Positions 17-63,927 of a stretch of 64,000 bases of DNA are shown here, piece after piece. Under the pieces are notes generated by a model, which saw only the letters and a list, made by a program, of their open reading frames with translations, was not told the origin of the DNA and made no database searches. A program made the translations under genes and the position numbers. The stretch is taken from positions 96,001 through 160,000 of IMG/VR virus record IMGVR_UViG_3300045988_126112. One strand, 5' to 3'. The number at the start of each line of letters is the position of its first letter. Within the stretch, counting starts at the first letter, position 1. The DNA comes from a virus.

Positions 17-1252
17 ATGAATGGTAAAGACCTTAAAGGTTGCTCATTAGTTTGCGTAGACGCTTCTGCTGTAAAAAGTGCATTACAAAGAGTTAAAAGA
101 TCTAATAAATTAAATAAAGAAGCTAATACAAATTTAATAGGTAAATTATCAGATGCTTTACAATCTGCAAAAATTAATAAAGATGATGTTAGAGGTTATA
201 AAGACTTCAAAAAGGAAGTAAGAGAAGGATTAACTGAAGCTACTAAAGATAATAAAAATCCTGTATATATAATACTTGTATATACAGCATCACCATTTGG
301 AAAAATGATTAAAGAATATACACATGGAATATATACACATGCAGCTATGTCTTTAGATAATACTTTAAATAAACTTTATAGTTTTAATCTAAATAATCAA
401 TTTAATAAACTTGGTGGATTTAGTATTGAATCTATAGAGGGTTATAAAAAAGATAATAAAGATGCTATAATGTGTGTATATACTACATTCATAGATGATG
501 ATAAGAAAAGAAAACTAGACAAACAAATAAATTACTTTATAGGTAATATAGATAAAACTAAATATAGTATTATAAATGTGCTTGGCTTAATTGCAAATAA
601 GCCTATAGAATTAGCTAATGATATGATATGTAGTCAATTTGTTGATAGAATGCTTAAGTCTGTAGATATAGACGTTACTGGTATGGCTAGTTCTTTAGTA
701 ACTCCAAATGATATTTATAAATCAACTTCTAATAAAATATATAAAGTTTATGAAGGAAGAGTTGATGAATATAATCATAAGAAAATTCAAGCTAAAGTTA
801 ATAAACTTAGACGTTCTAGTATAACTGAAGCTAAATCTGCTCCAGTACAATTTGATAAAGATGGTAATCTTCTTATTATAAAAAATATAAAAGATGTACA
901 AGAAGAATATAATAAATGCCATAAGTTACTTCTATCTTATGATTCTTCAGGAAATATAGAAGGGATGAAGCATGAGTTATATAAATTATGGTATCTTAAT
1001 CTTATACTTGAAAGAAAGATATATAAGAATAAGAAACCTGAAAAAGAATATCATGATATGAGAGCAAGAATACTTAATGATTTTAATAAGTATCTTAAAA
1101 TAGTAAATAAAGCTGAACCAGACTTTGATTTCACATCTGGTTATGAAGAATCGCCATATAGTGATGCAGCTATTAAAATCCATTCTCATACTTTGAAATA
1201 TGGAGTTAAGTATTCTAAATCATTATTTAAGCTATTTGAAACTGTTTTATAA
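17..1252 (+). CDS. Hypothetical protein. The N-terminal part may be a permuted papain-fold (NlpC/P60-superfamily, YiiX-like) domain. The gene may be truncated at its 5' end by the window edge.
   Basis: 411-aa ORF. The frame stays open back to nt 2, so the true start may lie upstream. A His-then-Cys arrangement ('GIYTHAAMS' ... 'DMICSQFVD') resembles permuted papain-like amidases. The C-terminal half is K/E-rich and helical-looking. Confidence 0.35.
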   Translation: MNGKDLKGCSLVCVDASAVKSALQRVKRSNKLNKEANTNLIGKLSDALQSAKINKDDVRGYKDFKKEVREGLTEATKDNKNPVYIILVYTASPFGKMIKEYTHGIYTHAAMSLDNTLNKLYSFNLNNQFNKLGGFSIESIEGYKKDNKDAIMCVYTTFIDDDKKRKLDKQINYFIGNIDKTKYSIINVLGLIANKPIELANDMICSQFVDRMLKSVDIDVTGMASSLVTPNDIYKSTSNKIYKVYEGRVDEYNHKKIQAKVNKLRRSSITEAKSAPVQFDKDGNLLIIKNIKDVQEEYNKCHKLLLSYDSSGNIEGMKHELYKLWYLNLILERKIYKNKKPEKEYHDMRARILNDFNKYLKIVNKAEPDFDFTSGYEESPYSDAAIKIHSHTLKYGVKYSKSLFKLFETVL

Positions 1253-1270
1253 TCATATATTATAAAAGTG
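1251..1270 (+). promoter_or_regulatory. Conserved promoter-like motif, copy 1
   Basis: 'AATCATATATTATAAAAGTG', ending about 31 nt upstream of the Nudix start. Confidence 0.55.
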
Positions 1271-3630: not shown

Positions 3631-3668
3631 AAATAATTCAATTAACAACATTATAAAAACAATTATAA

Positions 3669-3688
3669 CCATATATTATAGTATTGAG
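3669..3688 (+). promoter_or_regulatory. Conserved promoter-like motif, copy 2
   Basis: 'CCATATATTATAGTATTGAG'. It runs straight into the 10-bp stem-loop at 3680-3709. The ATG is at 3738. Confidence 0.55.
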
Positions 3689-3737
3689 ATATATATAAGT
3701 CTCAATACTATATTAAAAAAATTAGGAGGTAATATCT

Positions 3738-4607
3738 ATGGAAAACAATTATAATAATATGAACGGTCAACAAATGCAACAAGGAGCTGGTAATATAAAT
3801 ACTGAGTTCCAACAAAAAATACAAGCTGGTACAATATCAGCAAATGGAGGACTTGACAATTATGAAATAACAACAGAAAATAATATATCAATGAAAGTTA
3901 GTTCTTATTGTGAATTAATAACAAATGTTGATTTAGCAAAAAGAATAACTTCAACATTAAAATTACTATTCTGTGATTACAAAGGAACATTTGTAGATAT
4001 GGATGGTAATGGTCAAATACAAGTTGTATTATGGTTTGATCCTAACATGAGAAATGGAGAAGGCATTAAAGCAGTAGAAAGAAATGACTTAGCTTTAAAA
4101 GGAACTGGAAGTAAAGTTGCTGAGTTAAAAAATATGAATACAATAATGTCAGGTAATGCTAGACAATATGTAGTAACTAATCAAGGTAAATCATTATTAG
4201 CTAAATTTATAGGTGGAGATCCAAATAAAATAAATTGGAGAAACCATGTAGGCTACTATGATGCCAAACCACAACAATATGCAACAAATAATAGAGAAAC
4301 ATTGGTAAAAATAACTGGATGCAATATAAGAAACATATTAAGATTCATCCATGGTTCTAAAGTTGAAGTAGATAATGATTCAAAACAACCAGAACATGCA
4401 GTATCTTATGATGTTAAGTTTGTTTCTTTTATGAAACCAAATAGAATGCCACAATATCAAATGAATCCATATGGCGTAGTTGTACAAATGAATCAACAAC
4501 AAGAATTCTTATTACAAATACTTTGTATAGACAACGTGTTAATGGATGAATTGAAAAATACAATGGGTATAAATCCAAGCTTAATGGGTTCTATACAAAT
4601 GTATTAA
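3738..4607 (+). CDS. Hypothetical protein with a Q/N-rich N-terminus. It forms its own transcription unit.
   Basis: Strong SD (AGGAGGT). It is preceded by the conserved promoter-like motif (3669-3688) and a 5' stem-loop, and followed by a strong terminator (4631-4665). Confidence 0.8.
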   Translation: MENNYNNMNGQQMQQGAGNINTEFQQKIQAGTISANGGLDNYEITTENNISMKVSSYCELITNVDLAKRITSTLKLLFCDYKGTFVDMDGNGQIQVVLWFDPNMRNGEGIKAVERNDLALKGTGSKVAELKNMNTIMSGNARQYVVTNQGKSLLAKFIGGDPNKINWRNHVGYYDAKPQQYATNNRETLVKITGCNIRNILRFIHGSKVEVDNDSKQPEHAVSYDVKFVSFMKPNRMPQYQMNPYGVVVQMNQQQEFLLQILCIDNVLMDELKNTMGINPSLMGSIQMY

Positions 4608-4630: not shown

Positions 4631-4665
4631 AGAGATGCATTCAGTTGCATCTCTTTTATTTTTTT
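4631..4665 (+). terminator. Rho-independent terminator
   Basis: Stem AGAGATGCA/TGCATCTCT followed by TTTTATTTTTTT. Confidence 0.85.
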
Positions 4666-4679
4666 AGGAGGTAAATAAA

Positions 4680-5033: not shown

Positions 5034-6098
5034 ATGGGAGTAAATACAATAAATGTAACTAGTACTATATTTGGATTAGCAATACAATATGATAGATTGG
5101 ATGCTCTATGTAATAGAGCATTCAGAAACTTTAATGGTAAAACTATCAATATATTTATAGACTTATATACAATCTTTAAAGATTTAAGAAAACAAAACTA
5201 TCTTGAAGGAAATAATGTAGATATATGTGCAGGTATAATAAACTTAGCTGGACATTATAGACGTTTCTTTCTAAAGAATAATATATATGCTAAGATATAT
5301 TTAATAAACTCATCTAATATTCCTCAATGGAATATTGAGTTATGTGAAGATTACAATAAGAAGATGGTTCATATTGTATCTACAACATTAAAGAGAACAA
5401 ATACGTTAATTGAATATAACTATGATTTATTAGATACATTAACTCCATATTTAAAAGATGTTTATCTTATACACAGTACTTATGAATCTAGTGTTGTAAT
5501 CTATAATATAATTAAAAAGAATAAAGATATTGGAAATAATACAGCTAATCTTATAATAACTAAAGATATATATCCTTTTCAATTAGCTGGAATATGTAGT
5601 AATACTTTAATATATAAAGTAAAGAAATATAAAGGACAAGATATAAGTTATTGTGTAGGAGCTGGTAATTTGTATAATGCTTTATTATATGAAAACAAAA
5701 TCAATTATAATGATTACGATTTCTATAAAATAAGTCCAAAACTATTTAGTGTATTAATAACTTTAAATGGATTTAAGAAAAGAAATATAAAATCTATATA
5801 TAATATAAAGACAGCTAAAAATCTTATAGAAAAAGCTATATATGGAGATGCTATATTATTGAATGATTATAACTCTATCATAAATTGGAGAGATATTCAA
5901 CCTAAAGTAGAACCTATAGAGTTAAAGAATAGATTTGAATGTCTTGATATAATAACTCAACATTACACATATATAAATGATTATGAGTCTAAGTATAAAT
6001 TGAATAACTTATATGATCCTGATGGATTAAGAAGTTTAAATGAAATGTATTTTAAGACATTGAATCCTATAATATTTGATGGATTACTAATGGAATAA
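5034..6098 (+). CDS. Hypothetical protein
   Basis: 354-aa ORF translationally coupled to the upstream gene (3-nt gap). There is a weak, unconvincing resemblance to PIN/FEN-type nucleases ('INIFIDLY', 'IITKDIYPFQL'). Followed by the terminator at 6103-6142. Confidence 0.7.
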   Translation: MGVNTINVTSTIFGLAIQYDRLDALCNRAFRNFNGKTINIFIDLYTIFKDLRKQNYLEGNNVDICAGIINLAGHYRRFFLKNNIYAKIYLINSSNIPQWNIELCEDYNKKMVHIVSTTLKRTNTLIEYNYDLLDTLTPYLKDVYLIHSTYESSVVIYNIIKKNKDIGNNTANLIITKDIYPFQLAGICSNTLIYKVKKYKGQDISYCVGAGNLYNALLYENKINYNDYDFYKISPKLFSVLITLNGFKKRNIKSIYNIKTAKNLIEKAIYGDAILLNDYNSIINWRDIQPKVEPIELKNRFECLDIITQHYTYINDYESKYKLNNLYDPDGLRSLNEMYFKTLNPIIFDGLLME

Positions 6099-6102: not shown

Positions 6103-6142
6103 TAGAAGTAAGGATTAACCTCCTTACTTCTATTTATTTTTT
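6103..6142 (+). terminator. Rho-independent terminator
   Basis: 12-bp stem TAGAAGTAAGGA/TCCTTACTTCTA followed by TTTATTTTTT. Confidence 0.85.
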
Positions 6143-6157
6143 GAAAGGAGAATAGTT

Positions 6158-13538: not shown

Positions 13539-14564
13539 CTAAAAAATTGATGAAGCAACTGAATCTGGCATTGAATCTACCAAATCATCTGCTTTATATT
13601 TCTTTGTGTTATCACTTTTAACTTCTCTTGAAGCTTTTACTTCACTTTGTTTATTATCTATTGCTATTTTATTAGCAACTTTATCAAAGAAATTAGCAAT
13701 TGCATATTGCTTTTTAGATATTTCTTTTCTTTCTTTAGCTTTCATTCCAGGATTTGTTTCTACAGCTTGAGCATTTATTTTTAATAATTCAGATTGTATA
13801 TAGAAATAATCTGAAACTTGAGTTCTAGTATGGAAGAAGAAGTATACTAATTCTCTCATTATCGGAAGTATATTTGTAGCTAATAAAGTTAAAGCTACTA
13901 CAGCAGCAACACCTGCAACTGAAGTTGAAACACCTAAAAGATTTTTACTAGCTTGAGATATTACATATTCCATTGATTTATCAAAATCACCTTTCTTACA
14001 GCATTGATTGAATTTAGCTAAGTTATTTAAAACTAAATTATCTTTAGTTTTATTAACAGCTATTTTATCAACTACAGCTTCATATGAATCTCCATTAGGA
14101 ATTTTAATAAATTCAACACAAGTAGATATTAAATATGAATTAGCTTGTATAACAGCTAAAGTCATTGTAGAATACATTACCATCGGTAATTCGATACTTA
14201 ATTTAAAAGCTTTTTCAAACAATTCTCTTCTTGAACGTATATTATCTAAAGCTTCCAATACTGTATCTACTGGATTAGCTTTTTGACCATATTGTGATAA
14301 TAAAGATTTCATTACATCTAAACTATCAACCAATTGTTCATAATTACTAAGCTTAGTAATATCACCTTTAGTTTCTGGTATATCACCAAAATCTATATCA
14401 TCAATCTTATTGATGATATGGTCATAAAGTCTACTAGTTAATGATGCTAATATTTGAGATTGGTCTTCTTCATTTACATTAAGCATTATAGTTCTAGTAT
14501 CTTTATCATCTAAATCAAAATGCTCTTTTAATATTTGATCATATTCCTTAGTCATATAAGCCAT
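13539..14564 (-). CDS. Hypothetical protein with one internal transmembrane-like segment
   Basis: 341 aa with SD GGAGGTG. Hydrophobic stretch 'GVSTSVAGVAAVVALTLLATNILPI'. The stop TAG overlaps the SD of the downstream gene. Confidence 0.75.
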   Translation of the reverse strand: MAYMTKEYDQILKEHFDLDDKDTRTIMLNVNEEDQSQILASLTSRLYDHIINKIDDIDFGDIPETKGDITKLSNYEQLVDSLDVMKSLLSQYGQKANPVDTVLEALDNIRSRRELFEKAFKLSIELPMVMYSTMTLAVIQANSYLISTCVEFIKIPNGDSYEAVVDKIAVNKTKDNLVLNNLAKFNQCCKKGDFDKSMEYVISQASKNLLGVSTSVAGVAAVVALTLLATNILPIMRELVYFFFHTRTQVSDYFYIQSELLKINAQAVETNPGMKAKERKEISKKQYAIANFFDKVANKIAIDNKQSEVKASREVKSDNTKKYKADDLVDSMPDSVASSIF

Positions 14565-14641
14565 TTTATCACCTCCACCTTAATATTCTGTTATTATTTA
14601 TATTCCATTTCTATTTAATCAAAAAATAAACTTTCTATATA

Positions 14642-15943
14642 TTATCGCATTTTAGTCATAAGAGTTATCATTTTTCTGAAATCATTATCACTAGATTCTC
14701 TTTCTAGTGATCTAAATGAAAGTCTCTCATAAACATCATTACCAGTATCATAAATGAAGTCACATACTTCATTTAATTCATCTACTATAACAACAGACAT
14801 TAAATTGTAAGATTCCATTATAGGTCTTATTACTCTAGGATTATCTATATGAACATTGTAATTCTTTTTAAGATATTGTACTTCTTCTTGAGAAACTACT
14901 AATGTAGTTATAGCACTAGCATCATTTGGTTGACCTAAAGTTCTTCTTATTTTAGATTTCAAAGAACGTCTTTCTAATACTTTCCATAATTTAGAACTTG
15001 AACCTCTACGTGATTGAGATAAAGCATCTATTTTTGCTTTATCAATAGCAAATAAGAAATCTTTAACAAAAGATATTTCTCTTGTAGTAGCTCTTATGAA
15101 TTTTAAAAATCCATTATTATCTACATTTTTAGAGTATAATCTTTCTACTACATCCATAGAATCTATAGGATATAGTTTTGCTTTTACACCTATAACTAAT
15201 CTATTTTGTATAGGCATTCCATCAGTATTAGTAACAAAGTTTACTATCATTACAGTTGGTACTAATTCATTAGCTTTTTTAACATCTGAATCCATTAATT
15301 GATTTCTAAGAATATCAACATGATTTTTTGAACCTTTAAAATCCATATCTAAATAACGTTCTTCATCATAGTCTATAGGAGGAGCTTCATATAATATAGC
15401 ACTTTGACTACCATCATATTTTGAAGCTACTATCTTATAATTTTCTAATGAAATATTATTTACTGATTCTGGAAGTACATAACTTATATTATGTTTAAAA
15501 TCTTCTTTAAGCAAATCAAGTTTTTCTCTATATTCAATTGGATTGATATTAGCATTTTCATCTGCAGCTGACATTATTAAGTCATCCATTAAATTCATAA
15601 AACTATCAACAGACATTTTATCGTCTATTTTTAGATTAGTATGGAATTTCTTAATATAATCTAATCCATTATTAGTATTATTTACTGATATAGCAGAAAA
15701 AAGCATCTGTAACATAGATACAGCTTTACGTTCAACAGCTTTAGCTACCATTGTTGCATTTTCTACACTTATGTTTCTAACTGTCGCTACTGGAAAGACT
15801 AATGTTAATGCATCTGAAGCATGCGAAATAGATTTGAAACTGTCATTAGCAGTCATACCCTTAATGTAATCTGATTTTCTAACATCATTTATAACGTCTA
15901 TAATATCTCTTATAACTGTTTCATGTATTATATCATTTGACAT
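14642..15943 (-). CDS. Hypothetical protein (virion-module position)
   Basis: 433-aa ORF with strong SD AAAGGAGGT. I recognised no motif. Confidence 0.75.
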   Translation of the reverse strand: MSNDIIHETVIRDIIDVINDVRKSDYIKGMTANDSFKSISHASDALTLVFPVATVRNISVENATMVAKAVERKAVSMLQMLFSAISVNNTNNGLDYIKKFHTNLKIDDKMSVDSFMNLMDDLIMSAADENANINPIEYREKLDLLKEDFKHNISYVLPESVNNISLENYKIVASKYDGSQSAILYEAPPIDYDEERYLDMDFKGSKNHVDILRNQLMDSDVKKANELVPTVMIVNFVTNTDGMPIQNRLVIGVKAKLYPIDSMDVVERLYSKNVDNNGFLKFIRATTREISFVKDFLFAIDKAKIDALSQSRRGSSSKLWKVLERRSLKSKIRRTLGQPNDASAITTLVVSQEEVQYLKKNYNVHIDNPRVIRPIMESYNLMSVVIVDELNEVCDFIYDTGNDVYERLSFRSLERESSDNDFRKMITLMTKMR

Positions 15944-15997
15944 TAATCATACCTCCTTTAATAATATTTTAATATAATGTTAAAAAGACAAAAAATA

Positions 15998-16027
15998 AAA
16001 GACTTATAAGAAGACTTATTATAATAT
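15998..16027. repeat. Left arm of an imperfect inverted repeat flanking the 78-aa gene
   Basis: 'AAGACTTATAAGAAGACTTATTATAAT'. The reverse complement of the right arm (16338-16363) is 'TGAGACTTATAAGAA---CTTATTATATG', giving 22 matching nt with a 3-nt gap. Confidence 0.7.
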
Positions 16028-16031
16028 TATT

Positions 16032-16268
16032 CTAAAAGTATGTTATTACATATCTCATAGGTTTAATATCATCTTCTTCTCTTTTTGGTTCCTCAATTTT
16101 GTTACATTTATATTCTTCATGTTGTTTTACAGGTTCAACATAATTAGATGTAGTATCATAAGAATAATTACTTTCGTAACTTCTTTGTTTTCTACGTCTA
16201 TTACTTGAAACTGCACTCCTTCTTATATAAGTGTAACTACTTTCTGCACATAAGCCTCTATTATACAT
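16032..16268 (-). CDS. Small basic Ser/Tyr/Arg-rich protein
   Basis: 78 aa with good SD (AAGGGAGGA, 8 nt from the ATG). The motif-like promoter lies upstream at 16362-16379. Inverted repeats flank the gene. Confidence 0.6.
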   Translation of the reverse strand: MYNRGLCAESSYTYIRRSAVSSNRRRKQRSYESNYSYDTTSNYVEPVKQHEEYKCNKIEEPKREEDDIKPMRYVITYF

Positions 16269-16337: not shown

Positions 16338-16363
16338 CATATAATAAGTTCTTATAAGTCTCA
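16338..16363. repeat. Right arm of the inverted repeat flanking the 78-aa gene
   Basis: 'CATATAATAAGTTCTTATAAGTCTCA'. It contains the palindrome CTTATAAG, as does the left arm. Confidence 0.7.
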
Positions 16364-16379
16364 CTATTATAATATATAA
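16362..16379 (-). promoter_or_regulatory. Conserved promoter-like motif, minus-strand variant
   Basis: The reverse complement reads 'TTATATATTATAATAGTG' (C to T at position 2). It lies upstream of the 78-aa gene in the divergent region. Confidence 0.45.
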
Positions 16380-16431
16380 ATGAAATTTGATTTAATAGAA
16401 TAACACTAATATAATTTGAAAGGATGTGATT

Positions 16432-17529
16432 ATGATGGCTAAAACCAAGAAGAATAAAAAAGATGACGAATTAATTAAATTATCTAGAGAGTCTAAAATA
16501 CAATCCAGTATAGATAAAAATGGTAACGTCTTACATTTAGGGAAAAGTGGCTATCTTAAAGAGACTGGAGCTTTAGATAATAAGACATTAACAGAGATAC
16601 AGCAAGCTGATTTTATACAAAATTCTTCAGATATGAATTGGCTTACTAGATTTAATAGGTTAAGTTATTTGGACCCATATAATACTTTAACTCATAATAA
16701 AGAATATATATTTATAACTAAACCAGACTTACATTTATTTGAAGGTAAAAGTAGTAGTGCTTTAAATAGTGAAATAAAAGATAATACTTATTTTTTAGAC
16801 ATGTTTGAAAGATATAGACATGTAATGAAACAACTACAATATTCTGTAAATACTTCTAATCCTTATTTATGTATACTTTCTAATTCAGTAGCATCATCTA
16901 TTGAATTACCTTCTATAAATAGTTTGGAATCAGAATCTCCAGAGAATTTATATGGAGATAAAATATCATATAGACATGGCTCTGCAGCTGGAGATGTTGG
17001 ATTTGAATTCTCTTTAGAATTTTATGAAACTAAAAATTTGGAAATATATAATCTATTTAAAATGTGGGATAAATACTATGAATTAAAATCAAATGGAAGA
17101 ATCACTCCTCCAGATGATTCATATATTTTAAATATGGAATTACATGATCAAGTATCTATATATAAGATAATAGTAGGTGAAGATTATGAAACTATATTAT
17201 TCTATGCTAAATATTATGGTGTATATCCAAAAAGTTTACCTAGAGATAGCTTTGGTTCATTAGATGATGGGAATTTAAAACTAAGTGTAGATTTTAAATC
17301 TTCATTTGTTATAGATAATGACCCACTAATATTAGCTGATTTAAATAAGATATCTTATGGAGATAAAACTGGTAGTGTTGAATTAGAAAGTTTATGGGAT
17401 CATGAAAATGATAGAGTAAATTATAAATGGGTTGGAAAACCATATGTAATCAAATGTAAAGATATAGATAATGGTGAAAACTCAGAAGGAAGTATGGGAA
17501 AATATAAATTGAAATGGGGGAAAAAGTAG
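16432..17529 (+). CDS. Hypothetical virion-module protein
   Basis: ATG 16432 is 8 nt after AAAGGA; the track start GTG 16426 is too close to the SD. Translationally coupled to the next gene (stop TAG, then ATG 17530). Confidence 0.7.
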   Translation: MMAKTKKNKKDDELIKLSRESKIQSSIDKNGNVLHLGKSGYLKETGALDNKTLTEIQQADFIQNSSDMNWLTRFNRLSYLDPYNTLTHNKEYIFITKPDLHLFEGKSSSALNSEIKDNTYFLDMFERYRHVMKQLQYSVNTSNPYLCILSNSVASSIELPSINSLESESPENLYGDKISYRHGSAAGDVGFEFSLEFYETKNLEIYNLFKMWDKYYELKSNGRITPPDDSYILNMELHDQVSIYKIIVGEDYETILFYAKYYGVYPKSLPRDSFGSLDDGNLKLSVDFKSSFVIDNDPLILADLNKISYGDKTGSVELESLWDHENDRVNYKWVGKPYVIKCKDIDNGENSEGSMGKYKLKWGKK

Positions 17530-20178: not shown

Positions 20179-20212
20179 CATTATATTAATATTAGTAAAG
20201 GAGGAGAATTTA

Positions 20213-22278: not shown

Positions 22279-22338
22279 ATGGATATACCTCCTTTTATAT
22301 AATTTTAATAAATTGTTACCAATTTAATTATTTTTGAC

Positions 22339-41671: not shown

Positions 41672-41714
41672 TTTGATTACCTCCTTTTACAAAAAATAAA
41701 TATTATCTTAATGT

Positions 41715-41760
41715 TAAAAAACAAATTTGAAGGAGATACAGCGTTAGCCGTATCTCCTTG
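41715..41760 (-). terminator. Terminator-like hairpin immediately upstream of the giant gene
   Basis: 10-bp stem AAGGAGATAC/GTATCTCCTT, followed on the minus strand by CAAATTTGTTTTTT. Confidence 0.6.
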
Positions 41761-41946
41761 TAGAGTGTAGAAATTATTCAATATGTTTGAATAACAATGT
41801 GGTACACTAAGTGTCGGGGAAAGTTGAACACTTAGTGATTCAAGAGTTAAAGCTTTAGTATATAGCTCATCATATAAAGTTTTTTGGGTCGGGAGTTTCT
41901 ATAAAAAACTTTTAAATATACTAGCCTACTTTTATGTTAGTTTAAT
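41761..41946 (-). other. Structured non-coding leader between the 174-aa gene and the giant gene
   Basis: No ORF on either strand. It has 10-bp stems at 41805-41814/41828-41837 and 41876-41885/41903-41912. Both loops carry GTCGGG(G)A on the + strand. Confidence 0.6.
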
Positions 41947-42471
41947 TTATTTTTTATTTTTCAAATGTTTTGGACAAGGAGAACTTGCTTTTACACCTTT
42001 ATGAGCTGGTGTTATAGATTCACCTTTGTCATAAGTTCCATCTTCATTTTTCTTAGGGAAATATGCAACTTTTTCTTCTGTTTCTTTAAGCATAAAGCTT
42101 ATATCAGAATCTGCTTTGCAGCCTAAAGATATTTTTCTTCCTGTATCTAAATATCCTAGCATGAATTCTTTAGATATATCTACTAAATTACTAGCATCTG
42201 CTTTTGTGAATTGCATGTTATTAGCTAATTCTTGAGCTTCTGCTGATGGTATTGAAGCACCTTTATTTATTATTGATGCTGCTAATTGTACTGCATTATC
42301 ATGTGGGCAACATTCTCTAACTACTTCACCTACATTATTATATTCTGCAGTCTTAAACTCTGGGTCATTTATCATTGCATGCATTACATCTCTTTCATCT
42401 TTTTTACTTTGTCCTTTTTGAGTTAATCCTTCATTAATTTCACTTATTAATTTTCTAGCGTTGAATTCCAT
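41947..42471 (-). CDS. Hypothetical protein occupying the position where a tail-assembly chaperone is usually found (upstream of the tape-measure-like gene)
   Basis: 174 aa with strong SD TAGGAGGT. The chaperone idea rests on position only; I saw no slippery site and no overlapping -1 frame. Confidence 0.6.
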   Translation of the reverse strand: MEFNARKLISEINEGLTQKGQSKKDERDVMHAMINDPEFKTAEYNNVGEVVRECCPHDNAVQLAASIINKGASIPSAEAQELANNMQFTKADASNLVDISKEFMLGYLDTGRKISLGCKADSDISFMLKETEEKVAYFPKKNEDGTYDKGESITPAHKGVKASSPCPKHLKNKK

Positions 42472-43399: not shown

Positions 43400-43449
43400 A
43401 AGCTATGTCCTCCTTTATTTATATAAAAGTACTTATTTTATTACATTAA

Positions 43450-43461
43450 TATAATATATAA
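43450..43461 (-). promoter_or_regulatory. Conserved promoter-like motif, minus-strand variant
   Basis: The reverse complement reads 'TTATATATTATA', about 50 nt upstream of the first gene of the minus block (start 43399). Confidence 0.45.
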
Positions 43462-43510
43462 AAGAAAATAATATTAAAAAATATTTTTTTACAATGTAAC
43501 TAACATTTCG

Positions 43511-43820
43511 ATAAGAAGGAGGACATAGGGGTGGGCGGTCGGGAAAGATTGTGAATGGGATAAATGATAGAGAAGAGTGAAGGATAAGAGTGAAGACAAG
43601 GGAACAGGAAGAAAAGACCCGACCCGAGAGGGGAGGGAGATAAGCAGTAACAAGATAGATACGATAGAAAAGAGAGATAGATAAGAGAGAAAGGGAATAG
43701 AACGTGAAAATGAAAGAAAAGAGAGATACAAGGAGTGAAAGGGAGTAATGGATCCTGGGAACTAGAGAACTTAGGAACAGGGAACTTGAAGTTAAGGAAT
43801 GGGTAGAGAAGAACAGGCTT
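43511..43820 (+). other. Non-coding polypurine (GA-rich) tract of about 310 nt
   Basis: My hand count finds about 65 pyrimidines in 310 nt on the + strand (~80% purine) in a genome otherwise rich in T. The longest + strand ATG ORF is 12 codons. It lies between divergent gene blocks. Confidence 0.9.
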
Positions 43821-44211: not shown

Positions 44212-47200
44212 ATGATATTATTAGATGAAGTACAAAAAATGAAATTAATAAAGAAACCATTTTATTTACCTTTAAATAAAGATAAGAAACATGGTAAAGC
44301 AGTATTATTAATGACTCCAATGTATGATAGTACTATAAGATTATTAAATAATCCATTAATAATAAAGAAACATTATGAATCATATTATTTAGAAAGAGAT
44401 ATGATGTATGTAATTAATCATGAAGGACATATAGATTATGATGCTACAGATGGATTGATTAATGAATATAATGATATTCTAGATGATATTAATGAAGCTA
44501 CATTAGCTAATCCTTATATAGGAAACTATAGTAATAATCTTAAAGAAAAGAATAAAGTAAGAAAAAGAAAGATGAGAAAATCTATTCATAAAATGAATAG
44601 AATAGGAAATTATGAAAAAAATAATGTAGGAATAGAAGGAGATAAAAAAGCTATAGGTAAAGAAGTAGTTAAAGATGATCCAGATAAGATATCAGATGAT
44701 AAATCAGTAGAAGAAATTTATGTTGGATATTCTGGAGATATGTATGTAGAAGATAATAATTCTCTTATAAGATATAATATAGGAGATAATAAGAATCTAT
44801 TATATATATTAGAAGCAGATCAAATATATAATAATCAATTAAAGAAATTATTATATAATGATAGAATGAAACAAAAAGGAGAATTGTTTGATATCTATAA
44901 TATGATTAAACAAGATGTAGATTATATCAAATATTGCTATATAGATATTAATAAATATAAAGCAAGAAATATGTTTATTGATACATTCTATTATAATGAA
45001 ATATTCTTAAATAAGAATGTATGGAAAAGAGATAAAGCTATTAATTTATACTTTGATTTAATGGATAGATTCTTAGATAATCCTAAAATAGAAAAAGATT
45101 ATGGTAGAATAGAAACAGTATTAGTACCAGTATTAGAATGGGTAAGAGAAGATGATGATTTAGATTTTACAAAGAGTATAAATTTCGTATCTATGGTATT
45201 AAGATTATTAAAGAATAAAGCTCATAATTCTTTACTTAATAAATGGAGAGGAATAAACTTTGTATTTATGACTAGTAAAGGATATTTTACTTGTGATTTA
45301 GGTTCTTTAGAAGGAAAAAGAGATAAAGCTAAATTTAGAGTATTACTTAGTAAATTAATTAATGGTGATAGTATTCAAGATGAAGGTAAAGAAGATTCAC
45401 CAGGAGCTATTAAACAAGCTATTACAGATAAAATAGAAGATGATGCTAAGATAAAACTTTATAATGCAACTGGAGATGCTGATAAAAAAGAAGCTAGTAA
45501 GAAAGAATTAGAAGAAAAGATAGATAAAGCTGCTGAATTATCATCTTCAGTAGATGGAGCATTAGATAAATTAGATGATGATGAAAGAGTTAAACAAATC
45601 TTAATGGATTTAGCTGCAGAAGAAGAAAATAAAGTTAAACTTAATGCTGCTAGAACTTCAAGAATGTTAAAAGCACAAGACAAATCAATGGAAAAAGTTA
45701 TTAATGGTAGATCAATAAGAGATATATTATCAGCTCAAAAAGAAGAAGTTGAAATACCTGAAACATCAATAAATATAGATTCAGTAAATGATGAATGGAA
45801 ACATATGACATTTATGAATTTTGAAGATGCTTATAATATAGATGAAGACATAATGGCTATTATATATTCATTCTCAGAAAAATCAGATCCAATAGCTATA
45901 TTAGATGTTGATGTACAAGACACTTCAACTTCTGAAGATAAAAAAGAAACTTATACAGTTAAAATGGAAGATGCTCAAGGTAAAAGATTTACTATTAAAT
46001 TTGATATACCTAAATTTATAGATAATAAATTCATGTTACTTAGAGGTAATGAAAAGACTATGAATGGGCAATTAACTTTAATACCAATATGTAAAACAGA
46101 TGAAGATACAGTACAAATTGTTTCAAACTATAAGAAAATATTTGTTCATCCATATGGTTCATCAGTAGGAAAATCAATGCCATCAGCAGATGTATTATAT
46201 AAATACTTAAATAAATATGATGGCAAAGATATAAAAATAGTTCCAGGTGATAATACTAAAACATGTCATAAATATGATTTACCAATAGACTATATAGATT
46301 TAGCTAAAGTATATAATACTATAGAAACTGATAAATATATCATATATTTTAATCAAGATGCTATAAGAGAAAAATATAAAGTTGATGATAAAGAAGAAGG
46401 TATTCCATTAGCAGTAGAAAAAGCTACAGGTAAAGTAAGATATTATCGTGGAGCTGCTGATACAACATGTACAAGTGCTATAATAAGTTTATTATGCCAA
46501 TCTAAAAATGGTGATAAACATAGAGAAGGAATTAATAATCAAAAGATTGCTAATAAGTATATGTATAGTAAAGCTAATATACTTAATGTAAAAATACCAT
46601 TAATAGTTATAATGGCTCATTCAGAAGGATTAGAAGAATCAATGAAAAAAGGTAATATTAATTATAGTATACAAGAAAAGAGATATAAACCAAATATGTA
46701 TGAAGATGTAATTAAATTTAAAGATGCATATATTGTTTATAGAGTAGATTATAATTCATCTTTATTAATGAATGGTCTTAAAGAATGTCCAACTGAAGAA
46801 TATTCAATTAAAGAAATGAATAATAAATCAATGTATATAGATTTCTTAGAATTATATGGTGGTAGAATATTATCAGATGGTCTAGACAACTTCTATGACT
46901 TAATGATAGATCCAATAACTAAAGAAGTTCTTGAATATTATAAACTTCCAACTGATTATTGTGAATTATTAGCTTATGCTAACTTCTTATTAGCTGATAA
47001 TAAATATGTAAAACATACAGATATGCGTTCAAGAAGATATAGAACTAATGAATTAGTTGCTGGTTATGCTTATCAAGCTCTTTCAGAATCTTACGGAGCA
47101 TACAAAACTGAACTTAAAAAACGTGGTACAGCTACAATGACAATAAAACAAACTGCTATTATAGATAAAGTAATGCTTGACCCAACTTGTGCAGATTTAT

Positions 47201-48729
47201 CATCATTAAATGATTTACAAAATGCTGAAGCTATAAATTCTGCAACATATAAAGGATTAGCTGGAATGAACTATGATAGATCTTATGATTTGGATAAACG
47301 TTCTTATGACCCATCAATGCTAAATCTTATAGGAATGGCTACAGGATTTGCTGGTAATGTTGGTTTAACAAGACAAACTACTATGGATATGAATATAGAA
47401 GGTAAAAGAGGATATGTTAAAACTATAGATGGTGATACTAGTCAATTATCAGTAACCAAATCATTCTGTCCTACTGAAGGATTAACTCCATTTGGGGCTA
47501 CAAGAGATGACCCATTTAGATCTGCGATGAACTTTATTCAAACTAGTAAACATGGTATGAGAATAAAGAATGCTATGCCATTATTAATGAGTAATGGTAC
47601 TGATATGGCATTACCATATTTAACTTCAAATACATTCTCTTTCAATGCTAAAGCTAATGGCAAAGTTATTGAAATTACTAATGATTATATGATAGTAGAA
47701 TATAAACTTACTAAAGAAGAAAAAGAAAGAGGATTACCAGAAAAAGATTTTATAGATTTAAGAAATACAATCAAGAAAAACTCTAATGGTGGATTCTATC
47801 AAGCAATAAAATTAGATACAGATTTAAAAGTAGGAAATACTTTTAAGAAGAATGAAGTAATAGCATATGATAAATTATCATATTCATCTAAAGTAGGTAA
47901 TACAGGAGATTTATCATATAATTTAGGTGCATTATGTAAAGTTGCTATGCTTACAACAGATGAAGGATTTGAAGATAGTGCCATAATATCTGAATGGTTA
48001 TCAGATGCATTAGCATCTAGAGTTGTTGTTAAAAAAGAATATGTATTACCAAAGAATACTAATATATATTACATGGCTAAAAAAGGTCAAGAGATTCAAG
48101 AAGGAGAACCTTTAATGATTTTCCAAAATGCATTTGAAGATGATGATGTAAATTTATTATTAAAGAATCTTAGTGATGATGAAGAACTTATATCAGATTT
48201 AGGTCGTGTTCCAATTCGTTCTAAAGTTACAGGAAGAATAGAAGATATAAAAGTATATCGTACTGTAGAAAAAGATGAATTATCAGAATCTTTAAGAAAA
48301 GAAGTTAATAAAATAGAAAAACCTATAAATGATATTAAGAAAGCTATGAATAATACAGATACTTATGATGCTAGTAAACTTGAACCAACATATGTACTTG
48401 AAAAAAGTGGTAAATTAAAAAATGTTGATGAAGGTGTATTAGTTGAATTCTATTTATCTTATTATGATAAGATGTCTGTTGGAGATAAACTTATATATTA
48501 TTCAGCATGTAAAGGTGTTGTAAAAGATATATTCCCAGCAGGAAAAGAACCTTATTCATTATTTAGACCTGATGAAAAGATTCATACATTAGTTCCTTAT
48601 TTTGGTGTAGCAAATCGTATAGTTTGCTCAATAGTGAATACTATACCTATGAATAAAGTATTAATAGAATTAGATAGAGCAGTTAAAGATTTATGTGATA
48701 TTCCATATAAATATTTAGATGAAGAGTAA
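44212..48729 (+). CDS. Highly divergent multisubunit RNA polymerase beta-subunit homologue with a ~590-aa N-terminal extension
   Basis: These blocks align by eye with bacterial RpoB signatures. 'KFMLLRGNEKTMNGQL' matches 'F.INGaERV..SQl'. 'FCPTEGLTPFG' matches 'ICPIETPEGPNIG'. 'TRDDPFRSAMNFIQTSKHG' matches 'HDDANRALMGANMQRQA'. 'GFEDSAIIS' matches 'NFEDSILVS'. 'GDKLIYYSACKGVV' matches 'GDKMAGRHGNKGVI'. 'LVPYFGVANRI' matches 'LNPLGVPSRMN'. Confidence 0.7.
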   Translation: MILLDEVQKMKLIKKPFYLPLNKDKKHGKAVLLMTPMYDSTIRLLNNPLIIKKHYESYYLERDMMYVINHEGHIDYDATDGLINEYNDILDDINEATLANPYIGNYSNNLKEKNKVRKRKMRKSIHKMNRIGNYEKNNVGIEGDKKAIGKEVVKDDPDKISDDKSVEEIYVGYSGDMYVEDNNSLIRYNIGDNKNLLYILEADQIYNNQLKKLLYNDRMKQKGELFDIYNMIKQDVDYIKYCYIDINKYKARNMFIDTFYYNEIFLNKNVWKRDKAINLYFDLMDRFLDNPKIEKDYGRIETVLVPVLEWVREDDDLDFTKSINFVSMVLRLLKNKAHNSLLNKWRGINFVFMTSKGYFTCDLGSLEGKRDKAKFRVLLSKLINGDSIQDEGKEDSPGAIKQAITDKIEDDAKIKLYNATGDADKKEASKKELEEKIDKAAELSSSVDGALDKLDDDERVKQILMDLAAEEENKVKLNAARTSRMLKAQDKSMEKVINGRSIRDILSAQKEEVEIPETSINIDSVNDEWKHMTFMNFEDAYNIDEDIMAIIYSFSEKSDPIAILDVDVQDTSTSEDKKETYTVKMEDAQGKRFTIKFDIPKFIDNKFMLLRGNEKTMNGQLTLIPICKTDEDTVQIVSNYKKIFVHPYGSSVGKSMPSADVLYKYLNKYDGKDIKIVPGDNTKTCHKYDLPIDYIDLAKVYNTIETDKYIIYFNQDAIREKYKVDDKEEGIPLAVEKATGKVRYYRGAADTTCTSAIISLLCQSKNGDKHREGINNQKIANKYMYSKANILNVKIPLIVIMAHSEGLEESMKKGNINYSIQEKRYKPNMYEDVIKFKDAYIVYRVDYNSSLLMNGLKECPTEEYSIKEMNNKSMYIDFLELYGGRILSDGLDNFYDLMIDPITKEVLEYYKLPTDYCELLAYANFLLADNKYVKHTDMRSRRYRTNELVAGYAYQALSESYGAYKTELKKRGTATMTIKQTAIIDKVMLDPTCADLSSLNDLQNAEAINSATYKGLAGMNYDRSYDLDKRSYDPSMLNLIGMATGFAGNVGLTRQTTMDMNIEGKRGYVKTIDGDTSQLSVTKSFCPTEGLTPFGATRDDPFRSAMNFIQTSKHGMRIKNAMPLLMSNGTDMALPYLTSNTFSFNAKANGKVIEITNDYMIVEYKLTKEEKERGLPEKDFIDLRNTIKKNSNGGFYQAIKLDTDLKVGNTFKKNEVIAYDKLSYSSKVGNTGDLSYNLGALCKVAMLTTDEGFEDSAIISEWLSDALASRVVVKKEYVLPKNTNIYYMAKKGQEIQEGEPLMIFQNAFEDDDVNLLLKNLSDDEELISDLGRVPIRSKVTGRIEDIKVYRTVEKDELSESLRKEVNKIEKPINDIKKAMNNTDTYDASKLEPTYVLEKSGKLKNVDEGVLVEFYLSYYDKMSVGDKLIYYSACKGVVKDIFPAGKEPYSLFRPDEKIHTLVPYFGVANRIVCSIVNTIPMNKVLIELDRAVKDLCDIPYKYLDEE

Positions 48730-58526: not shown

Positions 58527-59324
58527 ATGAGAAATTCAGATATAATAACAGATAATTTTGATTCTGAACCAGAAGTGGTAAAAATTAATGATTTACCTGA
58601 ATGTAATCAATTCGAATATGATTTGATGGACGAAAAAGATTTTAAAAAATATATGAAAGATGTTGAGAGAATGGTACGTAATTCTATGGAATATAGACTT
58701 ATGGTTAAATTTCTAAGAGAGAATATGGATATGAATAAATGTAGTTTCTATGAAAATGTAAATAATATAGATACATTTAAGATTAAGATTCATTTACATC
58801 ATCATCCATTTACTCTTTATGATATATGCTATATAGTTTATAAGAAACGTTGTGCTTATGGAGAACCTGTTGATGTTGAAGATGTTGCTAAAGAAGTTAT
58901 GCATATTCATTATAATATGATGGTTGGATTAATACCATTAGCAGAAACTCCTCATGAGCTAGTACACAATAAATATTTGTTTGTTCCTTTGGATAGAGTA
59001 TATGGTGCTTGGAGTGCATTTTATGATATGTATTTTCCATTTATGGATTTAGATTATATAGAAAATATAAGAGAAAATGTAGAACGTACAAAAGCATATA
59101 AAGAATCTCAAGAAGAATTAGGTGTATTAGCTAAGAAATATGTATATGTCGATGTGGATAGTGGTATATATGATATTCCTGATTATGCTACTGTAATACA
59201 AGCTATGGAAAAAAGAATAGCTACTATTAATGAAGAAGAAAGACTTAATCATCAACCTATGAGAAAAGTTATACATTTTATAAAAGCTAATGGGGAAAAA
59301 GAAACAAACAATAGTATTTTTTAA
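58527..59324 (+). CDS. Hypothetical protein (His-rich patch 'HLHHHP')
   Basis: ATG 58527 is 8 nt after AAGGGGG; the track GTG at 58518 lies inside the SD. I recognised no family. Confidence 0.7.
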   Translation: MRNSDIITDNFDSEPEVVKINDLPECNQFEYDLMDEKDFKKYMKDVERMVRNSMEYRLMVKFLRENMDMNKCSFYENVNNIDTFKIKIHLHHHPFTLYDICYIVYKKRCAYGEPVDVEDVAKEVMHIHYNMMVGLIPLAETPHELVHNKYLFVPLDRVYGAWSAFYDMYFPFMDLDYIENIRENVERTKAYKESQEELGVLAKKYVYVDVDSGIYDIPDYATVIQAMEKRIATINEEERLNHQPMRKVIHFIKANGEKETNNSIF

Positions 59325-59343
59325 TCATATATTATAGTATTGA
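59323..59343 (+). promoter_or_regulatory. Conserved promoter-like motif, copy 3
   Basis: 'AATCATATATTATAGTATTGA', which is 19/19 identical to copy 2 over CATATATTATAGTATTGA. The ATG is at 59370. Confidence 0.55.
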
Positions 59344-61651: not shown

Positions 61652-61694
61652 GGATGAAAGATTAACTAGAGATAAACATTGGAAACTATAATAT

Positions 61695-61712
61695 AATCAT
61701 ATATTATAATCA
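61695..61712 (+). promoter_or_regulatory. Conserved promoter-like motif, copy 4
   Basis: 'AATCATATATTATAATCA'. Two further ATATTATAAT copies follow within 50 nt. Confidence 0.5.
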
Positions 61713-61854
61713 TGATGTAAATAAATATTATAATATAACTATATTATAATTGTATATTCATAATAAACCTTTTTAATAATTAATAACTTATTACTTTGGA
61801 CTATGGGTGAGGATCCATAGTCCAATAAACTCTTTTTTGAAAGGTGGGGAACTT

Positions 61855-63860: not shown

Positions 63861-63871
63861 TCATTAGAGAT

Positions 63872-63903: not shown

Positions 63904-63907
63904 ATAT

Positions 63908-63927
63908 AATCATATATTATAGAAGTG
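63908..63927 (+). promoter_or_regulatory. Conserved promoter-like motif, copy 5
   Basis: 'AATCATATATTATAGAAGTG', directly after terminator 63872-63903 and 30 nt before the ATG at 63957. Confidence 0.55.

What the first reader, a model, noticed from the sequence alone, without database searches (positions are those of the whole stretch)
3669..3715. Recurrent 12-19-nt intergenic motif TCATATATTATA(R)(W)A(G/T)TG: candidate phage-specific promoter
The same motif occurs at 1253-1270, 3669-3688, 59325-59343, 61697-61712 and 63910-63927 on the + strand. Close variants occur on the minus strand at 16362-16379 and 43450-43461. Every copy is intergenic and oriented with the downstream gene, usually 30-60 nt before the start codon and often right after a terminator. 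Copies 2 and 3 are identical over 19 nt (CATATATTATAGTATTGA). Copies 1 and 5 share TCATATATTATA[AG]AAGTG. I see no conserved -35 (TTGACA-like) hexamer at a fixed distance, so this is not a simple host sigma-A promoter. The window also encodes a divergent RNAP beta homologue, so a phage-RNAP-specific promoter class is plausible. In copy 2 the motif runs directly into a 10-bp stem-loop (3680-3709), which would sit at the 5' end of the transcript. Weaker ATATTATA(A/G) cores occur at 44150, 56013 and 16012-16031 (minus).
Basis: partly seen in the sequence, partly recalled or inferred. Interest (0 to 1): 0.65.

Follow-up and report, generated by a model that had tools for sequence, protein, structure and literature searches.

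The report
Early promoters of a gut jumbo phage
The repeated AT-rich motif is real and is most likely the set of early-gene promoters read by the RNA polymerase that this uncultivated human-gut jumbo phage carries in its virion, a promoter type already known from Bacillus phage AR9 and phiKZ-like phages.

Summary
All seven copies sit at the stated coordinates. Their shared form is (T/A)TAAT(C/T)ATATATTATA-N4-TG. The exact pattern ATATATTATA-N4-TG occurs 7 times against 0.36 expected, never in coding sequence, and always intergenic and co-oriented with the next gene.

The window comes from a 244-kb human-gut metagenome contig of an AR9/PBS1-like jumbo phage. It encodes an orthologue of AR9 g189, a beta-like subunit of the virion RNA polymerase. 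The motif matches the experimentally mapped AR9 early (virion-RNAP) promoter, AAATATATATTAT-(6N)-G(+1), in both core and spacing.

Four more copies lie just outside the window. The motif also keeps its place upstream of orthologous genes in relatives whose proteins are only 22-45% identical. The AR9 late-promoter pattern AACA-N6-T(A/G) is separately enriched in front of the virion genes.

- The stem-loop at copy 2 has 14 bp, straddles the predicted start site, and is unique to that copy.
- Only one copy follows a clear terminator.
- The "weaker cores" are not members of the class.

This is a new member of a known kind. Start sites and the polymerase assignment are inferred, not measured.

The parts
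1248..1270 (+). Early-promoter copy 1 (TATAATCATATATTATAAAAGTG). Predicted +1 is G1270. It lies 26 nt upstream of the NUDIX hydrolase gene 1296-1793.
   Evidence: 27.7 bits. NUDIX assignment. The same motif-NUDIX pairing occurs in relative L069 and in AR9 g074.
3664..3686 (+). Early-promoter copy 2, the focal copy (TATAACCATATATTATAGTATTG). Predicted +1 is G3686. It lies 52 nt upstream of gene 3738-4607.
   Evidence: 25.8 bits. The motif is also present upstream of the orthologues in L031 and L086, and at the same position in L045.
3677..3712 (+). Perfect 14-bp inverted repeat (UAUAGUAUUGAGAU / GUCUCAAUACUAUA) that straddles the predicted start site of copy 2. It is specific to this copy and its role is unknown.
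   Evidence: -17 kcal/mol, z = -6.1. Folded from +1, only 5 bp remain (-5 kcal/mol, z = -0.1). It is absent at the other copies and in orthologous loci.
16362..16384 (-). Early-promoter copy 6 (TTCATTTATATATTATAATAGTG). Predicted +1 is G16362. It lies 94 nt upstream of the small gene 16032-16268 (-).
   Evidence: 25.7 bits.
43444..43466 (-). Early-promoter copy 7 (TTCTTTTATATATTATATTAATG). Predicted +1 is G43444. It heads a minus-strand operon of small genes running from 43399 down to 41947.
   Evidence: 19.8 bits.
59320..59342 (+). Early-promoter copy 3 (TTTAATCATATATTATAGTATTG). Predicted +1 is G59342. It lies 28 nt upstream of gene 59370-60212 (HA-domain / HNH-repeat protein).
   Evidence: 27.3 bits. 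The same arrangement occurs after the orthologue of 58518-59324 in L050.
61692..61714 (+). Early-promoter copy 4 (TATAATCATATATTATAATCATG). Predicted +1 is G61714. It lies upstream of the RNase H gene (called 61855-62523).
   Evidence: 25.9 bits.
63905..63927 (+). Early-promoter copy 5 (TATAATCATATATTATAGAAGTG). Predicted +1 is G63927. It sits directly after a strong terminator hairpin (63866-63901) and 30 nt upstream of a gene starting at 63957.
   Evidence: 29.1 bits. Terminator: (-17.5 kcal/mol, z = -7.5).
44212..48729 (+). Beta-like subunit of the virion RNA polymerase (1505 aa), orthologue of AR9 g189. This is the enzyme proposed to read the motif. The gene itself follows a late-type motif at 43840-43851.
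   Evidence: PHROG RNAP beta, 7e-141. tblastn to the exons of AR9 g189, which is annotated as a virion RNAP subunit: 30-36% identity, E = 3e-61 and 1e-47. No match to the sequences of solved structures.
41704..41715 (-). One example of the second promoter class, the AR9 late type AACA-N6-TA (here AACATTAAGATA), 32 nt upstream of the 5708-aa tape-measure gene. Other copies: 14581-14592(-), 15970-15981(-), 16402-16413(+), 20177-20188(+), 22306-22317(-), 43840-43851(+), 56105-56116(+).
   Evidence: 14 in sense upstream regions against 2.67 expected, 0/1000 shuffles.

Best explanation
The motif (T/A)TAAT(C/T)ATATATTATA-N4-T-G is the early promoter of this phage, of the kind described for AR9 and for phiKZ-related jumbo phages. 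The proposed mechanism has four steps.

1. The phage packages a multisubunit, beta/beta'-like RNA polymerase in its virion. One subunit is encoded at 44212-48729.
2. That enzyme is injected together with the DNA.
3. Without host RNAP or a sigma factor, it recognises the roughly 10-nt AT-rich element centred near -12.
4. It starts transcription at the invariant G that lies 6 nt downstream of TATATTAT.

Each copy heads an operon of small or unknown proteins and nucleotide/DNA-metabolism proteins (NUDIX hydrolase, RNase H, phosphoesterase, an HTH protein). Virion genes are instead preceded by a second motif, AACA-N6-TA. In AR9 that motif is the late promoter read by the non-virion polymerase.

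Shown here: the motif, its statistics, its position and orientation, its match to the AR9 consensus, its conservation in relatives, and the presence of a virion-RNAP subunit orthologue.

Inferred: the start site at G, early timing, and which polymerase reads the motif.
For: 1. Match to a mapped promoter. The AR9 early consensus AAATATATATTAT-(6N)-G+1 was defined by dRNA-seq and primer extension, and its transcription does not depend on protein synthesis (PMC5312081). All 7 window copies and 4 further copies fit ATATATTAT-N6-G.
2. Enrichment and location. 7 matches against 0.36 expected, none in coding sequence; 6 against 0.155 in intergenic-only shuffles. All are co-oriented with the next gene.
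3. Out-of-sample copies. Four more copies lie in the 17.7 kb of the same contig outside the window, all intergenic and co-oriented.
4. The polymerase. The window's beta-like protein is the orthologue of AR9 g189, which is annotated as a virion RNAP subunit and is a late gene in AR9.
5. Gene classes. The motif precedes the NUDIX, RNase H and phosphoesterase genes and small unknown genes. Virion-protein genes carry AACA-N6-TA instead: 14 against 2.67 expected, 0/1000.
6. Conservation. The motif is found upstream of the orthologues of the NUDIX gene and of 3738-4607, and of the gene that follows 58518-59324, in IMG/VR jumbo contigs with 22-45% protein identity. Nine extra copies there are all intergenic and co-oriented. 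In strain variant L021 the upstream flank is unrelated but the core is kept.
7. The same core occurs in front of genes in Staphylococcus phage SA1 and Listeria phage LPJP1. Related cores are published as predicted early promoters of phiKZ (TATATTAC), 201phi2-1, OBP and N1M2 (PMC7058600; PMC7598289).
Against: - No transcript 5' ends, timing data or in vitro transcription exist for this phage. The host is unknown.
- TATTAT at -12 to -7 relative to the G has the geometry of a sigma-70 -10 hexamer, and 2 of 7 copies have a -35-like hexamer. Some use by host RNAP cannot be excluded.
- Only one RNAP subunit gene lies in the window. The other virion and non-virion subunits could not be checked.
- A matrix trained on 8 annotated AR9 promoters puts all 7 copies in the top 19 window hits but does not separate them cleanly from AT-rich coding sites. 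The resemblance is to the core plus spacing, not to the AR9 flanks.
- One relative (L068) has a copy that points into the 3' end of an opposite-strand gene.
Confidence: 0.85

Rival explanations
1. The motif is a promoter for the host sigma-A holoenzyme that relies on the -10 element alone. TATTAT would serve as the -10 hexamer and the G as +1, so the phage's early genes would be read by host RNAP.
For: TATTAT sits at -12 to -7 relative to the conserved G and keeps A-11 and T-7. Copies 1 and 4 have TTGAAA/TTGGAA at 16-17 bp.
Against: - Five of 7 copies have no -35 match.
- There is no TGn extension; the bases upstream of the hexamer are an invariant ATA.
- Eleven of 11 copies are identical at 10 consecutive positions plus TG. 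Host promoter sets are not that uniform, and the invariant hexamer is not the consensus TATAAT.
- Sigma-70-like sites as a class are not enriched in the window (132 against 167; 20 against 29; 53 against 49 expected).
- The identical core serves phages of Bacillus, Staphylococcus and Listeria and the gut clade.
- AR9 early transcription was attributed to the injected virion RNAP.
Confidence: 0.07
2. The motif is read by some other phage-directed machinery. Candidates are the non-virion RNAP with a dedicated specificity subunit (a middle class), or a phage activator or repressor that binds the AT-rich box, rather than the virion RNAP.
For: Nothing in the sequence says which polymerase binds. 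The enzyme assignment rests on analogy with AR9 and phiKZ. How the virion RNAP recognises promoters was unknown when AR9 was studied.
Against: - In AR9 the non-virion enzyme recognises a different motif, AACA-N6-T(A/G). That motif is present as a separate class in this window, in front of virion genes.
- In every profiled phage of this group, the AT-rich box centred near -10 was the early promoter consensus and is attributed to the virion RNAP (PMC7598289).
Confidence: 0.06
3. The motif is not a promoter. It could be a short repeat tied to module boundaries or recombination, a replication or packaging signal, or a chance product of the AT-rich composition.
For: The genome is 26% G+C. In strain L021 a sequence replacement ends exactly at the motif.
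Against: - Composition-matched shuffles never reach the observed count.
- The motif has a strict orientation relative to the downstream gene and lies 26-141 nt from start codons.
- Copies do not share flanks beyond about 23 nt.
- The motif keeps its position upstream of orthologues after the DNA has diverged to 22-45% protein identity.
Confidence: 0.02

Closest known systems
Early (virion-RNAP) promoters of Bacillus phage AR9/PBS1: AAATATATATTAT-(6N)-G+1 (Lavysh et al. 2017, PMC5312081)
   Same: - The core ATATATTAT is identical, as are the 6-nt spacing and the invariant G.
- Both are intergenic, co-oriented with the next gene, and have short 5' UTRs (26-141 nt here; 26-491 nt in AR9).
- Density is similar: 11 copies in 82 kb here, 41 in 251 kb in AR9.
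- A NUDIX hydrolase gene is preceded by the motif in both.
- Both have a separate AACA-N6-T(A/G) class in front of virion genes.
- The phage encodes an orthologue of the AR9 virion-RNAP subunit g189.
   Different: - The upstream flank is TAAT(C/T) here rather than AAAT.
- Position -6 (A) and position -1 (T) are invariant here but variable in AR9.
- The proteins are only about 30-36% identical.
- The beta-like gene here is one uninterrupted 1505-aa ORF, whereas AR9 g189 is joined from 6 pieces.
- This phage encodes ThyX-like, dUTPase-like and dTMP-kinase-like proteins, so it may not have AR9's uracil DNA.
- Nothing has been tested experimentally here.
Early promoters of phiKZ-related Pseudomonas and enterobacterial jumbo phages: phiKZ TATATTAC, 201phi2-1 BTATATTACDWHDGTG, OBP/N1M2 KATATTATYWWADTG (PMC7058600, PMC11512511, PMC7598289)
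   Same: An AT-rich, highly conserved box of about 10 nt centred near -10, with (T)ATATTA(T/C) followed 5-6 nt later by (G)TG. It lies upstream of early operons and is attributed to the injected multisubunit virion RNAP.
   Different: Those phages also conserve elements around -20 and -30, and their late promoter is different (TATG in phiKZ). This window's late-type motif follows AR9, not phiKZ.
Staphylococcus jumbo phage vB_StaM_SA1 and Listeria phage LPJP1 (closest cultivated relatives by RNAP beta, about 31-32% identity)
   Same: SA1 carries AAATATATATTATAAAAATG at least four times in a 43-kb stretch. LPJP1 carries ATTATAATCATATATTATATTATTG, whose 17-nt TATAATCATATATTATA is identical to this window's version. 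In both phages the copies lie in front of genes.
   Different: I found no published mapping of these sites in the papers I read. The counts here come from 43-kb stretches only.
Bacterial sigma-70/sigma-A -10 element (TATAAT at -12 to -7)
   Same: TATTAT occupies -12 to -7 relative to the predicted +1.
   Different: There is no conserved -35 or TGn. The copies are invariant over 10 or more positions, and the hexamer is never the consensus TATAAT.

Membership tests
AR9/phiKZ-type virion-RNAP early promoter | Highly conserved AT-rich element of about 10-13 nt with core TATATTA(T/C), centred near -10 | tested here: met
   ATATATTATA is invariant in 11/11 copies. The AR9 consensus is quoted from PMC5312081 and the phiKZ-group consensus sequences from PMC7058600.
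AR9/phiKZ-type virion-RNAP early promoter | Conserved G located 6 nt downstream of the element | tested here: met
   G is present at that position in 11/11 copies, always preceded by T.
AR9/phiKZ-type virion-RNAP early promoter | That G is the transcription start site | not testable with these tools
   This needs 5'-end mapping. No cultured host and no RNA data were available.
AR9/phiKZ-type virion-RNAP early promoter | Over-represented, intergenic, co-oriented with downstream operons, and absent in front of virion genes | tested here: met
   Downstream genes are NUDIX, RNase H, phosphoesterase, HTH and small unknowns. Virion genes carry the late-type motif instead.
AR9/phiKZ-type virion-RNAP early promoter | The phage encodes a multisubunit beta/beta'-like virion RNAP | tested here: met
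   Met for one subunit only. Gene 44212-48729 is the orthologue of AR9 g189, annotated as a virion RNAP beta subunit. The remaining virion subunits lie outside the window and could not be checked.
AR9/phiKZ-type virion-RNAP early promoter | A second, non-virion RNAP with a distinct late-promoter class | tested here: inconclusive
   The AR9 late pattern AACA-N6-T(A/G) is enriched in sense upstream regions: 14 against 2.67 expected, 0/1000. No non-virion RNAP subunit gene was identified in the window.
AR9/phiKZ-type virion-RNAP early promoter | Transcription immediately after infection, independent of host RNAP and of new protein synthesis | not testable with these tools
   This needs infection experiments with rifampicin and chloramphenicol.
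Host sigma-A (sigma-70 type) promoter | A -35 hexamer (TTGACA-like) 16-18 bp upstream of the -10 hexamer, or a TGn extended -10 | tested here: not met
   Only copies 1 and 4 have a -35-like hexamer. No copy has TGn; the bases at that position are an invariant ATA.
N4-type hairpin promoter (single-subunit virion RNAP) | A DNA hairpin at a fixed position in every promoter of the class | tested here: not met
   Only copy 2 has a significant inverted repeat. It is absent at the other copies and in orthologous loci.

The most novel reading that the evidence does not exclude
This uncultivated human-gut clade of roughly 220-260-kb AR9-like phages keeps both AR9 promoter classes: ATATATTAT-N6-G for early genes and AACA-N6-TA for late genes. 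It also encodes ThyX-like, dUTPase-like and dTMP-kinase-like enzymes, which point to thymine DNA rather than uracil DNA. In AR9, recognition of the late promoter strictly requires deoxyuridine in the template strand. So one of two things would follow. Either these gut phages are uracil-DNA phages despite those genes, or their polymerases read the same promoter words written with thymine. The second case would separate promoter sequence from the base-modification requirement. A smaller point: the 14-bp palindrome across the start site of copy 2 could be a copy-specific operator or a structural switch.
Probability: 0.25. Interest if true: 0.55.

Novelty: new member of a known kind. Interest (0 to 1): 0.35.

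Why it matters
The result gives a sequence-level transcription map for an uncultivated 244-kb human-gut jumbo phage: predicted early start sites, early and late operons, and the virion RNA polymerase subunit.

It also shows that the core of the virion-RNAP promoter is kept almost letter for letter across phages of Bacillus, Staphylococcus and Listeria and across gut metagenome phages, even though their polymerase subunits are only about 30% identical. The motif could therefore help to recognise and annotate this phage group in metagenomes, and to choose promoters for biochemical work on virion RNAPs. How those enzymes recognise promoters was unresolved in the papers read here.

It does not reveal a new kind of system.

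Tried and rejected
- Megablast of 20 kb against GenBank phages found no match.
- Relatives fetched through the DUF8224 protein (L001-L018, 44-51% identity) were too distant or lay in the wrong genome region. They gave few matches and no shared intergenic word.
- IMG/VR relatives sought directly with the protein of gene 3738-4607 gave none.
Two other window proteins were not on record.
- A matrix trained on 8 annotated AR9 promoters ranks all 7 copies in the top 19 but does not separate them cleanly, so it was not used as evidence of class membership.
- The sigma-70 scan showed no enrichment and no consistent -35.
- The hairpin is not a class feature.
- Terminator-promoter coupling holds clearly for only one copy.
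- The PDB sequence search with the beta-like protein found nothing.
- I tested whether the N-terminal half of the 5708-aa ORF hides a tape-measure-fused RNAP, as in phage P23-45. It has no Pfam, PHROG or PDB hit and no DxDGD motif, and residues 364-539 align to the AR9 tape-measure gene g204.
- The window has no tRNA genes and no Rfam families.
- Most of the 88 IMG/VR stretches with the exact 17-base motif are single hits on unrelated contigs. By my rough estimate they are compatible with chance in AT-rich DNA. Only the multi-hit jumbo contigs and the 9 loci with homologous proteins were used.

Full report
**1. Observation**

It reads (T/A)TAAT(C/T)ATATATTATA-N4-T-G, with ten invariant bases followed by an invariant TG.

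The enrichment is clear:
- The exact pattern ATATATTATA-N4-TG occurs 7 times against 0.36 expected from dinucleotide-preserving shuffles, 0/100. It occurs zero times in 60.7 kb of coding sequence.
- When only the intergenic DNA is shuffled (3.3 kb, 5.2% of the window, 24% G+C), 6 matches are observed against 0.03-0.16 expected, 0/1000. The seventh copy overlaps only a mechanically called TTG start; the called gene begins at 59370.
- Every copy points toward the next gene, and the conserved G lies 26-141 nt from the start codon.
- A weight matrix built from the copies gives a bimodal result: 19.8-29.1 bits for the sites, and 12.8 bits for the next best position in 81.7 kb.
- A count made without any prior pattern puts ATATATTATA second among 10-mers shared by upstream regions, after a terminator T-tract word. 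TCATATATTATA is first among 12-mers.

**2. What the window is**

The DNA is 26% G+C and has no close match among GenBank phages. It belongs to a 244,046-bp contig from a human gut metagenome, ENA ERZ918339.

It encodes virion proteins, a 5708-aa tape-measure-like protein, nucleotide-metabolism enzymes, and a 1505-aa protein with homology to RNAP beta.

The nearest cultivated relatives of that beta-like protein are Staphylococcus jumbo phages, Listeria phage LPJP1 and Bacillus phages PBS1/AR9, at about 31% identity. Within AR9 it aligns to the exons of g189, which is annotated as a virion RNAP beta subunit (30-36% identity, E = 3e-61 and 1e-47). It does not align to the AR9 region that holds g078 and g089. 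In AR9 all virion-RNAP subunit genes, g189 included, are late genes.

**3. What the motif is**

For AR9, dRNA-seq and primer extension defined 41 early promoters with the consensus AAATATATATTAT-(6N)-G+1. These promoters are active without protein synthesis and were therefore assigned to the injected virion RNAP (PMC5312081).

All seven window copies fit ATATATTAT-(6N)-G exactly. Used as an a-priori query, that pattern finds 8 sites against 1.82 expected. Seven of them are the intergenic copies. The eighth, at 5271-5286(-), is antisense inside a gene and lacks the A...TG extension.

A review of jumbo-phage RNAPs states that every such phage has an AT-rich box of about 10 nt centred near -10 upstream of early operons (PMC7598289). 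Published consensus sequences for phiKZ (TATATTAC), 201phi2-1, OBP and N1M2 (KATATTATYWAAGTG) share the same core and the downstream GTG (PMC7058600; PMC11512511).

**4. Independent support**

- Same contig, outside the window. The 17.7 kb flanking the window holds four more perfect copies. All are intergenic and co-oriented (L020 about 177 and about 5637; L019 about 16261 and about 19143).
- Strain variant. In L021 the DNA upstream of the NUDIX copy is unrelated, and identity resumes at the motif. The two differences inside the motif span fall at positions that also vary among copies.
- Relatives found by the motif. The exact 17-base version occurs on several IMG/VR contigs of 220-264 kb, some of them hit 2-4 times. 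Nine of the fetched loci encode homologues of window proteins at 22-45% identity.
- Positional conservation in those relatives. The motif lies upstream of the NUDIX orthologue (L069). It lies upstream of the orthologue of 3738-4607 in L031 and L086, and at the same position in L045. In L050 it lies between the orthologue of 58518-59324 and the next gene.
- Extra copies. Nine further copies in those loci, not used as the search seed, are all intergenic and co-oriented.
- AR9 itself has an annotated early promoter in front of its NUDIX gene, g074.
- Cultivated relatives. Staphylococcus phage SA1 (AAATATATATTATAAAAATG, four times) and Listeria phage LPJP1 (ATTATAATCATATATTATATTATTG) carry the same core in front of genes.

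**5. Gene context and the second promoter class**

The motif precedes genes for a NUDIX hydrolase, an unknown 289-aa protein, an HA/HNH-repeat protein followed by a phosphoesterase, RNase H, and two runs of small unknown proteins.

Genes with virion-protein hits (13539-14564, 14642-15943, 16426-17529), the tape-measure gene, and the operon that contains the virion-RNAP subunit are preceded by AACA-N6-TA, 12-32 nt from the start codon. This is the AR9 late-promoter consensus. In sense upstream regions it occurs 14 times against 2.67 expected, 0/1000 shuffles. The window therefore shows the AR9 arrangement of two promoter classes.

**6. The hairpin at the focal copy**

Positions 3677-3712 form a perfect 14-bp stem (-17 kcal/mol, z = -6.1). 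The predicted +1, G3686, lies inside the 5' arm. A transcript starting there keeps only 5 bp of stem (-5 kcal/mol, z = -0.1).

No other copy has such a repeat, and neither do the orthologous loci. The repeat is identical in the two strain variants, so there is no covariation to examine. It has no U-tract. I treat it as a copy-specific DNA palindrome of unknown role, possibly an operator. It is not part of the promoter class.

**7. Mechanism and rival explanations**

The best-supported explanation (0.85) is that the injected multisubunit virion RNAP recognises the AT-rich box and initiates at the G, driving the early operons. The sequence facts are shown here. The start site, the timing and the identity of the enzyme are inferred from AR9 and phiKZ.

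- Host sigma-A promoter (0.07). TATTAT has the geometry of a -10 element, and 2 of 7 copies have a -35-like hexamer. The other five do not, there is no TGn, the hexamer is invariant and not the consensus, and sigma-70-like sites are not enriched.
- Another phage factor or the non-virion RNAP (0.06). The non-virion-type motif is present as a separate class.
- Not a promoter (0.02). This is contradicted by the strict orientation, the spacing to start codons and the positional conservation.

**8. Comparison with known systems, and novelty**

The motif meets the testable defining features of the AR9/phiKZ-type early promoter: core sequence, spacing to G, distribution, a virion-RNAP subunit, and a distinct late-type motif. 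The start site and independence from the host cannot be tested with these tools.

It differs from AR9 in the flank (TAATC/T rather than AAAT) and in having invariant A at -6 and T at -1. It is a new member of a known kind, found in an uncultivated gut phage clade.

The most novel reading still open concerns DNA chemistry. The window encodes ThyX-like, dUTPase-like and dTMP-kinase-like proteins. Among the ThyX-like protein's 15 listed best matches and 10 commonest organism groups, none is an AR9/PBS1-like or Staphylococcus jumbo phage. Yet AR9 late promoters require template-strand deoxyuridine. I did not resolve this point.

**9. Verdict**

The finding is ordinary for this phage group but cleanly documented. 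Interest is 0.35.

Noticed in passing
window 14581-14592(-), 15970-15981(-), 16402-16413(+), 20177-20188(+), 22306-22317(-), 41704-41715(-), 43840-43851(+), 56105-56116(+): A second recurrent upstream motif, (T)AACA-N6-TA, often AACATTA-N3-TA. It lies 12-43 nt before the start codons of virion genes, the tape-measure gene, the virion-RNAP operon and the RNR gene. It equals the AR9 late-promoter consensus. In sense upstream regions: 14 against 2.67 expected, 0/1000 shuffles.
   Followed up: yes
window 24545-41671 (-): A single 5708-aa ORF. The C-terminal half carries three C39-like peptidase domains, a tail lysozyme, NlpC/P60, a GDSL lipase and two M23 peptidase domains, plus tape-measure PHROG hits. 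Residues 364-539 align to the AR9 tape-measure gene g204. The N-terminal 2854 aa otherwise have no Pfam, PHROG or PDB-sequence match and no DxDGD motif.
   Followed up: partly
window 50573-51235, 51413-51895, 54554-55735, 56160-58238 (+): A cluster of dTMP-kinase-like, dUTPase-like, ThyX-like and class-I/II RNR large-subunit genes. The ThyX-like protein's listed best matches in GenBank phages are cyanophages, actinophages and other phages. None of the 15 listed matches or the 10 commonest organism groups is a uracil-DNA jumbo phage (AR9/PBS1, Staphylococcus). This raises the question of whether this AR9-like phage has thymine DNA.
   Followed up: partly
window 44212-48729 (+): The virion-RNAP beta-like subunit is one uninterrupted 1505-aa ORF. 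Its first 450-500 residues or so have no match in relatives. The AR9 orthologue g189 is joined from six pieces and hosts a homing-endonuclease gene.
   Followed up: partly
L021 9400-9445 versus L020 9400-9445 (window about 1213-1258): In a strain variant from another sample, the gene upstream of the NUDIX promoter is 998 aa instead of 871 aa, and its 3' end is unrelated. Sequence identity resumes exactly at the promoter motif, as if the promoter marks a module boundary.
   Followed up: partly
L068 968-982 (+): In a relative (137-kb IMG/VR contig) a perfect motif copy lies between the tape-measure orthologue and the orthologue of 41947-42471. It points into the 3' end of that opposite-strand gene. 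It could drive an antisense transcript or an uncalled small gene.
   Followed up: no
window, e.g. 4658-4668, 6134-6144, 41685-41695(-), 54523-54533, 61038-61048: Intrinsic terminators are frequent (16 in the first 20 kb against 3.1 expected), and many share the same tail word, TTTATTTTTT(G). That word occurs in 9 upstream regions.
   Followed up: no
window 41672-41946, 43732-43873, 58239-58517: Three unusually long intergenic regions (275, 142 and 279 nt). Region 43732-43873 is G-rich with repeated GGGAAC/GGAAC words. Region 58239-58517 holds two strong hairpins (58360-58385 and 58455-58489). No tRNA gene or Rfam family matches anywhere in the window.
   Followed up: partly
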